Positions 3,321 to 3,519 of a DNA stretch of 64,000 bases are shown here, piece by piece. Within the stretch, counting starts at the first letter, position 1; each line of letters begins with the position of its first letter. A model generated the notes under the pieces. The model worked only from the letters and a program-made list of their open reading frames with translations. It had not been told where the DNA came from and did no database searches. The position numbers and the translations under genes were made by a program. Source of the DNA: Escherichia coli (GTDB lineage Bacteria > Pseudomonadota > Gammaproteobacteria > Enterobacterales > Enterobacteriaceae); NCBI RefSeq assembly GCF_003334785.1, contig NZ_QOWV01000001.1. One strand, 5' to 3'.

Positions 3321-3344
3321 CGCTATATACATGATTACATAGCG
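3321..3344. promoter_or_regulatory. Putative ModE operator in moaA promoter
   Basis: Palindrome CGCTATATAC-ATGAT-TACATAGCG read directly; same architecture as the modA ModE operator as I recall it. Confidence 0.55.
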
Positions 3345-3379
3345 AAAGTGTGGATGGTAAAAATCTCATTTACACGCTA

Positions 3380-3519
3380 GTATCGGCATAACCACTAAAC
3401 ACTCTAGCCTCTGCACCTGGGTCAACTGATACGGTGCTTTGGCCGTGACAATGCTCGTAAAGATTGCCACCAGGGCGAAGGAAGAAATGACTTCGCCTCC
3501 CGTATCTGGAAAGGTGTAC
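3380..3519 (+). ncRNA. Moco riboswitch-like leader of moaABCDE (boundaries approximate)
   Basis: About 140 nt structured leader directly upstream of the moaA start with CCUCC near the RBS; E. coli moaA is known to carry the Moco RNA motif; not folded here. Confidence 0.45.

What the first reader, a model, noticed from the sequence alone, without database searches (positions are those of the whole stretch)
3321..3519. moaA leader: ModE-type palindrome followed by a riboswitch-like structured leader
Seen in sequence: a 24-bp palindrome CGCTATATAC-ATGAT-TACATAGCG at 3321..3344, then about 140 nt of leader with a CCUCC element beside the moaA RBS. Established knowledge: moaABCDE expression responds to molybdate via ModE and to molybdenum cofactor via the Moco RNA motif. 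I assigned the boundaries by position only and did not fold the RNA.
Basis: partly seen in the sequence, partly recalled or inferred. Interest (0 to 1): 0.35.

Follow-up and report, generated by a model that had tools for sequence, protein, structure and literature searches.

The report
E. coli moaA ModE operator and Moco riboswitch
This is the well-studied control region of the E. coli moaABCDE operon, with a DNA site for the molybdate sensor ModE followed by the molybdenum-cofactor riboswitch that masks the moaA ribosome-binding site, so it is real but already known.

Summary
Both halves of the finding hold, and both are textbook features. Window 3130-3560 is base-for-base identical to E. 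coli K-12 MG1655 (window position + 813524 = genome coordinate).

**ModE site.** The palindrome CGCTATATA-N6-TACATAGCG lies exactly at 3321-3344. It matches the published ModE consensus CGnTATATA-N6-TATATAnCG at 15 of 16 specified positions. It is the only site with 3 or fewer mismatches in the 64 kb, and it scores as well as the modA, dmsA and napF sites. A box with 2 or fewer mismatches lies upstream of moaA in 54 of 85 related genomes, against 0 of 85 in controls.

**Riboswitch.** Rfam's Moco model (RF01055) hits 3388-3532 at 103.6 bits (threshold 36, E = 1e-24). RefSeq annotates the same span as a riboswitch. In 92 orthologous leaders, 33 of 41 base pairs show compensatory changes.

- Positions 3345-3387 are the core of the ModE-activated S1 promoter, not leader RNA.
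- The aptamer runs 13 nt into the moaA reading frame.
- CCUCC is the junction of helices P4 and P5, not the anti-Shine-Dalgarno strand. The Shine-Dalgarno sequence pairs with 3399-3404 in P1.

Novelty: already known. Interest is low.

The parts
3257..3270 (.). FNR-type site ATGATGTATATCAA (TTGAT-N4-ATCAA with 1 mismatch), upstream of the distal S2 promoter
   Evidence: Pattern match. The site centre at 3263.5 lies about 40-41 bp upstream of the S2 start inferred from the literature (S2 = -87 relative to S1; PMC2408646). The assignment is inferred, not tested.
3292..3304 (+). Approximate distal (S2, FNR-dependent) promoter: -10-like TATTCT and a transcription start near 3303-3304
   Evidence: Position derived from S2 = -87 relative to S1 and from reading the sequence. 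The consensus promoter scan found nothing in 3100-3600, which fits weak, activator-dependent promoters.
3321..3344 (.). ModE operator CGCTATATA-CATGAT-TACATAGCG
   Evidence: Inverted repeat. It matches 15 of 16 specified bases of the consensus quoted in PMC545781. Controls at modA, dmsA and napF behave the same way. The box is conserved upstream of moaA in Enterobacterales.
3355..3391 (+). Proximal (S1, ModE-activated) core promoter: weak -35-like TGGTAA at 3355-3360, -10-like TAGTAT at 3378-3383, start near 3389-3391
   Evidence: The S1 start was located from the Regulski et al. construct primers and the stated 131-nt leader. The hexamers were read from the sequence. The ModE box ends 10 bp upstream of the -35 region. 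My own recollection of Anderson et al. 2000, a paper not held in the library, is that ModE binds 'adjacent to the -35 region', which fits.
3388..3532 (+). Moco riboswitch aptamer plus expression platform (RF01055). P1 = 3390-3404 with 3513-3526. P2 = 3407-3417 with 3433-3443, plus 3421-3423 with 3428-3430. P3 = 3445-3449 with 3466-3470. P4 = 3473-3483 with 3488-3498, capped by GAAA at 3484-3487. P5 = 3499-3500 with 3508-3509.
   Evidence: Rfam hit of 103.6 bits. RefSeq annotates a riboswitch at the same span. Pair list. Covariation.
3480..3482 (+). GGA motif in P4, candidate CsrA site 1
   Evidence: The leader contains only two GGA triplets. The review PMC7652899 states that CsrA binds two sites within the aptamer. 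Which bases are bound was not verified here.
3508..3510 (+). GGA motif at the P5 3' strand, just 5' of the Shine-Dalgarno sequence; candidate CsrA site 2
   Evidence: Inferred.
3511..3516 (+). Shine-Dalgarno region AAGGUG; G3513-G3516 pair with the 5' strand of P1
   Evidence: Rfam structure mapped onto the sequence. Regulski et al. state that P1 encompasses the ribosome-binding site.
3520..4509 (+). moaA coding sequence (GTP 3',8-cyclase). The start codon lies in an internal loop of P1.
   Evidence: RefSeq annotation at 100% identity. ORF list.

Best explanation
This is the regulatory region of the E. coli moaABCDE operon, and it works on two levels.

**Transcription.** Molybdate-bound ModE dimer binds the operator at 3321-3344, just upstream of the weak -35 region of the proximal S1 promoter (start near 3390), and activates it. 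A distal promoter, S2 (start near 3303), is activated by FNR, probably through the site at 3257-3270.

**Translation.** The roughly 130-nt S1 leader folds into the five-helix Moco aptamer. When molybdenum cofactor, or a close derivative, is abundant, the folded aptamer holds P1 closed. P1 pairs C3400-C3404 with the Shine-Dalgarno bases G3513-G3516 and encloses the AUG, so translation of moaA is blocked. Rho-dependent termination is a likely secondary effect. CsrA binding at the two GGA motifs (3480, 3508) is reported to open the structure and stimulate translation.

**What was shown here:** the sequence identity, the consensus match, the covariance-model hit, the covariation, and the conservation of the operator.

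**What comes from the literature:** ModE and FNR dependence, Moco-dependent repression, and the CsrA and Rho effects.

**What is inferred:** the exact transcription starts, the hexamers, and the CsrA contact bases.
For: **Identity.** Window 3130-3560 matches MG1655 exactly. 5418 of 5426 complete E. coli genomes carry the region, annotated 'riboswitch | moaA', and RefSeq labels it 'molybdenum cofactor riboswitch'.

**ModE site.**
- It has 1 mismatch to CGnTATATA-N6-TATATAnCG and is unique in the window at 3 or fewer mismatches, where 0.11 are expected.
- The same pattern finds the modA operator (2 mismatches), and sites upstream of dmsA (1) and napF (2). The next best match in each of those intergenic regions has 6 mismatches.
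- 54 of 85 moaA loci from other species have a box with 2 or fewer mismatches within 420 nt upstream, against 0 of 85 in coding or shuffled controls.
- Across 53 distinct boxes, specific bases are invariant and the unspecified positions do not covary.

**Riboswitch.**
- RF01055 scores 103.6 bits against a gathering threshold of 36.
- In an unfitted MAFFT alignment of 22 Enterobacteriaceae, 80.8% of cells are paired, against 29-44% when partners are slid, and 11 pairs show double changes.
- A model built from those sequences finds the aptamer in 92 of 100 moaA loci. There 85.3% of cells are paired, against 34-42% slid, and 33 of 41 pairs have compensatory changes.

**Literature.**
- PMC2408646: S1 is activated by molybdate-ModE and S2 by FNR; the 131-nt leader confers Moco repression; P1 covers the ribosome-binding site; reporter fusions respond to Moco.
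- PMC7652899: CsrA binds two sites in the aptamer and activates translation.
- PMC7815308: Rho-dependent 3' ends occur at moaA.
Against: - Direct binding of Moco to the RNA has never been shown, and the exact ligand and the 3-D structure remain unknown (PMC2408646; PMC10845959; PMC11672702).
- Single-sequence thermodynamic folding does not reproduce the Rfam structure and is not significant (z = -1.5).
- The three outermost P1 pairs are poorly supported: 30% paired in Enterobacteriaceae and 52% in 92 sequences.
- The consensus promoter scan finds no sigma-70 promoter in 3100-3600, so the S1 and S2 hexamers rest on literature positions.
- The primary ModE footprinting paper (Anderson et al. 2000, PMC94831) is not in the library. 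I could not check the footprint coordinates against 3321-3344.
Confidence: 0.93

Rival explanations
1. The palindrome works as an RNA hairpin in the longer S2 transcript (a leader structure, processing site or terminator) and not as a protein operator on DNA.
For: The palindrome lies downstream of the inferred S2 start, so S2 transcripts contain it. RNA folding of 3303-3400 pairs the two arms in the minimum-free-energy structure.
Against: - No T-run follows the palindrome, and the terminator scan finds nothing there.
- In 53 orthologous boxes, conservation is base-specific: C1, T4, T6, T16, A19, A21, C23 and G24 are invariant.
- The free positions 3 and 22 are complementary in only 23 of 53 boxes.
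- Changes are one-sided, with a single double change, so there is no covariation.
- The centroid fold keeps only 4 pairs of the stem.
Confidence: 0.03
2. The palindrome is a chance AT-rich inverted repeat in an intergenic region and has no function.
For: Imperfect 9-nt palindromes with a 6-nt gap are common: 20 occur in this window.
Against: About 0.001 matches to the ModE consensus with 1 mismatch or fewer are expected per 64 kb. The same box is kept upstream of moaA across Enterobacterales while its 6-nt spacer and its flanks diverge.
Confidence: 0.01
3. The leader is a conserved structured RNA, but it does not sense Moco directly. Repression would be relayed by a protein (for example CsrA or a Moco-binding protein) or by another metabolite that tracks Moco levels.
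For: Direct ligand binding has not been demonstrated and the ligand is unidentified. CsrA does bind inside the aptamer.
Against: - The aptamer-like architecture is very strongly conserved: a multi-helix junction, a GNRA tetraloop, and 33 of 41 covarying pairs.
- Regulski et al. report that no protein factor has been found, and that the RNA discriminates Moco from close analogues in genetic tests.
- CsrA acts as an activator, not as the Moco-dependent repressor.
Confidence: 0.08

Closest known systems
Moco RNA motif / molybdenum cofactor riboswitch (Rfam RF01055; Regulski et al. 2008, PMC2408646)
   Same: This is the founding, experimentally studied representative. The sequence is identical to K-12 moaA. 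It has the P1-P5 architecture, a GAAA tetraloop on P4, a P3 stem (the Moco-type feature), and the ribosome-binding site inside P1. It scores 103.6 bits.
   Different: Nothing differs. The only nuance is that the outermost P1 pairs of the Rfam consensus, and three nominal P2 pairs (3410-3412 with 3438-3440), are not real pairs in E. coli or in most relatives.
ModE operators of E. coli (modA, dmsA, napF; consensus atCGnTATATA-N6-TATATAnCGat, PMC545781)
   Same: It has the same half-sites, the same 6-nt spacer length and the same TAYAT variant in the right arm as modA (TACATA). It has 1 mismatch, against 2, 1 and 2 for the controls.
   Different: At modA the operator lies about 20-40 bp upstream of the ATG in the core promoter region, and ModE represses there. 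That ModE represses modA is established knowledge and was not tested here. At moaA the box sits upstream of the -35 region and ModE activates.
Other cofactor systems that combine a transcription factor with a riboswitch (for example btuB with the B12 riboswitch; thiamine and FMN operons)
   Same: The end-product cofactor feeds back through a 5'-UTR aptamer that masks the Shine-Dalgarno sequence, layered on promoter-level control.
   Different: Here the promoter-level signal is the availability of the metal substrate (molybdate via ModE) plus anaerobiosis (FNR). A global RNA-binding protein, CsrA, also binds inside the aptamer.

Membership tests
Moco RNA motif (RF01055) | Covariance-model score above the curated gathering threshold | tested here: met
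   103.6 bits against 36, E = 1.1e-24, full-length match to model positions 1-135 at 3388-3532.
Moco RNA motif (RF01055) | Multi-helix (P1-P5) secondary structure supported by covariation | tested here: met
   With 22 sequences in an unfitted alignment, 80.8% of cells are paired against 29-44% slid, and 11 pairs are compensatory. With 92 sequences, 85.3% are paired against 34-42% slid, and 33 of 41 pairs are compensatory. P5 is invariant and so uninformative. The outer P1 pairs are weak.
Moco RNA motif (RF01055) | GNRA tetraloop on P4 with a receptor in P2 | tested here: inconclusive
   A GAAA loop is present at 3484-3487. The P2 bulge in E. coli reads CCUGGG/UACGG, whereas relatives have the canonical CCUAAG/UAUGG. 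The tertiary contact cannot be tested with these tools.
Moco RNA motif (RF01055) | Location in the 5' UTR of a molybdate-transport, Moco-biosynthesis or Moco-enzyme gene | tested here: met
   It lies immediately upstream of, and overlapping, the start of moaA. The same arrangement is found in 92 of 100 moaA loci.
Moco RNA motif (RF01055) | P3 stem present (Moco-type as opposed to the proposed tungsten-cofactor type) | tested here: met
   P3 is 3445-3449 with 3466-3470, extendable to 3452 with 3463. All 5 modelled pairs covary and 99.6% of cells are paired. The meaning of P3 is taken from PMC2408646.
Moco RNA motif (RF01055) | Direct, selective binding of the cofactor | not testable with these tools
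   The literature also has not demonstrated it.
ModE operator | Match to CGnTATATA-N6-TATATAnCG with a 6-nt spacer | tested here: met
   15 of 16 specified bases match. It is unique in 64 kb at 3 or fewer mismatches. It is as good as the modA, dmsA and napF sites.
ModE operator | Conserved in orthologous promoters of species that use ModE | tested here: met
   54 of 85 loci have a box, against 0 of 85 controls. 60 of 92 aptamer-bearing loci have a box with 2 or fewer mismatches centred 48-185 nt upstream of the aptamer. Whether each of those genomes carries modE was not checked.
ModE operator | modE gene present in the same genome | tested here: met
   modE (b0761) is annotated in MG1655, to which this window is identical in the region. 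The gene lies outside the window.
ModE operator | Molybdate-dependent binding of ModE protein and a regulatory effect | not testable with these tools
   Reported by Anderson et al. 2000, as cited in PMC2408646. The primary paper is not held.
FNR class II site | TTGAT-N4-ATCAA centred near -41.5 of the regulated promoter | tested here: inconclusive
   It has 1 mismatch at 3257-3270. The centre is about -40.5 or -41.5 from an S2 start that is itself only inferred to within 2 nt. Sites with 2 or fewer mismatches are frequent in the window (54).
CsrA binding site | GGA motif, often in a loop, usually in pairs | tested here: inconclusive
   The leader holds exactly two GGA triplets, at 3480 and 3508. 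The review states that there are two sites in the aptamer. The footprint paper is not held.

The most novel reading that the evidence does not exclude
The ModE operator lies about +18 to +41 downstream of the FNR-dependent S2 start. Molybdate-ModE might therefore activate S1 and at the same time act as a roadblock or repressor for S2 transcripts, which would make the box a promoter-switching element. Separately, the distance from the box to the aptamer varies widely among Enterobacterales (-48 to -185 nt), which suggests the promoter architecture has been remodelled repeatedly while both sensors were kept. Neither idea was tested here, and neither appeared in the papers I could read.
Probability: 0.1. 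Interest if true: 0.3.

Novelty: already known. Interest (0 to 1): 0.08.

Why it matters
The region is a good worked example of layered control of an expensive cofactor pathway. Transcription needs the metal substrate (molybdate, sensed by ModE) and demand (anaerobiosis, sensed by FNR). Translation is shut off by the end product through an RNA sensor and modulated by CsrA. For a genome scan it matters mainly as a positive control: a reader with no tools placed both elements correctly. The real open questions at this locus are the chemical identity of the ligand and the 3-D structure of the aptamer, and this finding does not advance them.

Tried and rejected
- **Single-sequence folding of 3388-3532.** The minimum-free-energy structure differs from the Rfam structure and is not better than shuffles (z = -1.5). 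I discarded it in favour of the covariance model and covariation.
- **Consensus sigma-70 scan of 3100-3600.** It found no promoter. The promoter parts therefore rest on literature positions and my reading of the sequence.
- **Terminator scan.** The one hit, at 3108-3121, lies inside the ybhK coding region on the opposite sense and is within chance expectation. I ignored it.
- **Primary papers.** Anderson et al. 2000 (PMC94831), Studholme & Pau 2003 (PMC317290) and Patterson-Fortin et al. 2013 (PMC3710303) are not held. Their content is cited only through papers that are held.
- **A simple regex for the aptamer core (CCTCC...GGAAAGG).** It missed many orthologues, so I replaced it with a covariance model built from 22 sequences.
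- **PMC7759655 searched for 'ModE'.** It returned mostly 'model' matches and nothing useful.
- **RNA-hairpin and chance-palindrome readings of 3321-3344.** Both were considered and rejected.

Full report
**What is there**

The window around the finding is Escherichia coli. Positions 3130-3560 are base-for-base identical to K-12 MG1655 (window position + 813524 = genome coordinate). The segment is present in 5425 of 5426 complete E. coli genomes, where it is annotated 'riboswitch | moaA'. The gene order is uvrB, ybhK (yvcK) on the opposite strand, then moaABCDE. The moaA ATG is at 3520 and its stop codon ends at 4509. The divergent ybhK gene starts at 3123, so the intergenic region is 396 bp.

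**The palindrome**

Its arms, 3321-3329 and 3336-3344, are 8 of 9 complementary with 6 nt between them.

Such a palindrome is not remarkable on its own. The window contains 20 with the same geometry, against about 7.5 in shuffles. The signal is in the specific bases.

- Against the E. coli ModE consensus quoted in PMC545781 (atCGnTATATA-N6-TATATAnCGat), the site matches 15 of 16 specified core positions.
- It is the only site with 3 or fewer mismatches in 64 kb, where 0.11 are expected from shuffles.
- For 1 mismatch or fewer, the analytic expectation is about 0.001 per window and about 0.08 per genome.

As positive controls I fetched three ModE-regulated promoters from MG1655 and ran the same pattern.

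| Promoter | Best match | Mismatches |
|---|---|---|
| modA operator | CGTTATATTGTCGCCTACATAACG | 2 |
| dmsA upstream | CGATGTATACAAGCCTATATAGCG | 1 |
| napF upstream | GGTTATAAATATATTTATATAGCG | 2 |

In each of those intergenic regions the next best match has 6 mismatches. So the moaA site scores as a ModE operator at least as well as accepted ones. That dmsA and napF are ModE targets is my own knowledge of the literature. The modA and moaA assignments are stated in PMC2408646.

**Conservation of the operator**

I needed orthologous loci chosen without reference to either element. I therefore scanned one genome per species for a degenerate DNA pattern encoding the MoaA radical-SAM motif [10 protein letters not shown]. 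This returned 120 loci, mostly Enterobacterales, plus Aeromonas, Vibrionaceae, Pasteurellaceae and others.

- Of 85 loci with full flanks, 54 have a ModE box with 2 or fewer mismatches within 420 nt upstream of the motif.
- None of 85 does in the downstream coding sequence or in shuffled upstream sequence.
- The box is found in Escherichia, Salmonella, Citrobacter, Enterobacter, Kluyvera, Serratia, Yersinia, Photorhabdus, Proteus, Providencia, Dickeya, Pectobacterium, Erwinia, Pantoea, Edwardsiella, Hafnia and Rahnella.

Across 53 distinct boxes, positions C1, T4, T6, T16, A19, A21, C23 and G24 are invariant, while the 6-nt spacer is nearly free. The unspecified positions 3 and 22 are Watson-Crick complementary in only 23 of 53 boxes. 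Changes in the arms are one-sided, with a single double change. This is the signature of a protein-recognised DNA site, not of an RNA stem.

**The leader RNA**

Rfam's Moco model RF01055 matches 3388-3532 over its full length at 103.6 bits (gathering score 36, E = 1.1e-24). RefSeq annotates the same span as 'molybdenum cofactor riboswitch'. Mapping the Rfam consensus structure onto the sequence gives the following helices.

| Helix | Pairing |
|---|---|
| P1 | 3390-3404 with 3513-3526 |
| P2 | 3407-3417 with 3433-3443, plus 3421-3423 with 3428-3430 |
| P3 | 3445-3449 with 3466-3470 |
| P4 | 3473-3483 with 3488-3498, capped by GAAA at 3484-3487 |
| P5 | 3499-3500 with 3508-3509 |

Thermodynamic folding of the single sequence does not recover this structure and is not significant (z = -1.5), so I tested it by covariation.

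- **Unfitted alignment.** In a plain MAFFT alignment of 22 Enterobacteriaceae leaders, 80.8% of cells form standard pairs, against 29-44% when the 3' partners are slid by 1-3 columns. Eleven pairs show changes on both sides.
- **Wider set.** A covariance model built from that alignment finds the aptamer directly upstream of moaA in 92 of 100 loci searched. On those 92 sequences, 85.3% of cells pair, against 34-42% slid, and 33 of 41 pairs have compensatory changes. No shuffle out of 500 reaches the observed values. This second alignment is fitted to the structure, which inflates the paired fraction somewhat. The unfitted alignment gives the same answer.

There are weak spots. The three outermost P1 pairs are paired in only 30% of cells in the 22-sequence alignment and 52% in the 92-sequence one. 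Three nominal P2 pairs (3410-3412 with 3438-3440) are U·U, C·U and U·U in E. coli and unpaired in about two thirds of the sequences. These look like an internal loop.

**How the two elements fit together**

Regulski et al. (PMC2408646) summarise earlier genetics.

- The operon has two promoters. [quoted passage not shown]
- S2 lies 87 nt upstream of S1 and depends on FNR.
- The 131-nt stretch between S1 and the start codon confers repression by Moco and 'precisely encompasses' the Moco motif.

Their reporter construct primers place S1 at about 3389-3391. That makes TAGTAT (3378-3383) the -10 element and a poor TGGTAA (3355-3360) the -35 element, with the ModE box ending 10 bp upstream of it. 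This fits an activator-dependent promoter, and it fits the failure of a consensus scan to find any promoter here.

S2 then falls at about 3303-3304. An FNR-type site, ATGATGTATATCAA (1 mismatch), sits at 3257-3270, centred roughly 40-41 bp upstream of it. These promoter coordinates are inferences and were not measured here.

In the RNA, the Shine-Dalgarno bases G3513-G3516 pair with C3400-C3404 in P1, and the AUG lies in an internal loop of P1. A ligand-stabilised aptamer therefore occludes initiation, as Regulski et al. proposed and supported with reporter fusions and helix mutants.

Its first three bases close P4 and its last two form P5 with G3508-G3509. It is not the anti-Shine-Dalgarno strand.

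**Further layers from the literature**

- CsrA binds two sites within the aptamer and activates moaA translation (PMC7652899, PMC4347634). The leader contains exactly two GGA triplets, at 3480 and 3508, which are the obvious candidates.
- Rho-dependent 3' ends occur in the moaA leader or early ORF (PMC7815308).
- Direct binding of Moco to the RNA has not been shown. The ligand's exact identity and the RNA's 3-D structure remain open.

**Comparison and membership**

The element is not merely like the Moco riboswitch and the moa ModE operator. It is those elements, in the organism where they were defined. Every testable defining feature was met:

- the covariance-model score;
- the covarying multi-helix structure;
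- the presence of P3;
- the genomic context;
- the ModE consensus match;
- conservation of the box across orthologues;
- modE in the genome.

Protein binding and ligand binding cannot be tested with these tools.

**Rivals**

An RNA-hairpin role for the palindrome in S2 transcripts is disfavoured. No U-run follows it and its arms do not covary. A chance palindrome is excluded by the statistics and the conservation. Indirect sensing, rather than direct Moco binding, cannot be excluded, but it is a minority view.

**Verdict**

- positions 3345-3387 are promoter, not S1 leader;
- the aptamer extends to 3532;
- CCUCC is not the anti-Shine-Dalgarno strand.

Novelty: already known. Interest is low. 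The only mildly new angles are untested: the operator sits inside the S2 transcription unit, so a roadblock is possible, and the spacing between the box and the aptamer varies from -48 to -185 nt across Enterobacterales.

Noticed in passing
window 3321-3344 relative to the S2 start near 3303: The ModE operator lies about +18 to +41 inside the FNR-dependent S2 transcription unit. Bound ModE could in principle impede S2 transcripts while activating S1.
   Followed up: no
loci L004-L103: The distance from the centre of the ModE box to the 5' end of the aptamer varies from -48 to -185 nt among Enterobacterales, with a mode of -73. E. coli and E. albertii, at -55, have one of the shortest arrangements.
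   Followed up: partly
L055 (Kosakonia cowanii), L047 (Pantoea stewartii), L032 and L066 (Tatumella), L084 (Arsenophonus nasoniae), L042 (Enterobacteriaceae MAG): These Enterobacterales keep the moaA Moco aptamer but have no ModE-consensus box within 200 nt upstream (best match 5-7 mismatches). Whether they lack modE was not checked.
   Followed up: no
Aeromonas loci (e.g. L019, L039, L064), Vibrionaceae (L029, L034, L049, L051), Haemophilus (L073, L083), Alcanivorax (L076, L082): The moaA leader carries the Moco aptamer but no E. coli-type ModE box. The pairing of the two sensors therefore appears to be specific to Enterobacterales within this sample.
   Followed up: partly
window 3390-3393 with 3523-3526, and 3410-3412 with 3438-3440: The outermost P1 pairs of the Rfam consensus are poorly supported: 30% paired in 22 Enterobacteriaceae and 52% in 92 sequences. 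Three nominal P2 pairs are non-canonical in E. coli and unpaired in about two thirds of sequences, which suggests an internal loop.
   Followed up: partly
window 3348-3375: RNA folding of the S2 leader predicts a 10-pair hairpin (GUGUGGAUGG...UCAUUUACAC) that overlaps the S1 -35 to -10 region (fold of 3303-3400, z = -2.0). It may be incidental.
   Followed up: no
window 24064-24134 (-), 2082-2123 (-), 18786-18828 (-), 44113-44155 (-): Rfam gathering-level hits to naRNA4 (78.4 bits) and three ES036/CssrF matches (41.6-43.4 bits). From my own knowledge these families are REP-derived intergenic repeats. The first ES036 copy sits between uvrB and ybhK.
   Followed up: no
whole window: Two counts exceed their shuffles. 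TTGAT-N4-ATCAA with 2 or fewer mismatches occurs 54 times, against 31 +/- 5 expected. Palindromes with 9-nt arms, a 6-nt gap and at most 1 mismatch occur 20 times, against about 7.5.
   Followed up: no
window 3123 versus 3183 (- strand): The longest ORF for ybhK/yvcK starts at a TTG at 3183. RefSeq and MG1655 annotate the ATG at 3123, which leaves a 396-bp divergent intergenic region shared with moaA.
   Followed up: no
L011 (MAG labelled Burkholderiales bacterium UBA1834): Its moaA leader is nearly identical to those of the Aeromonas species (e.g. L019), so the contig is probably mis-binned or mislabelled.
   Followed up: no
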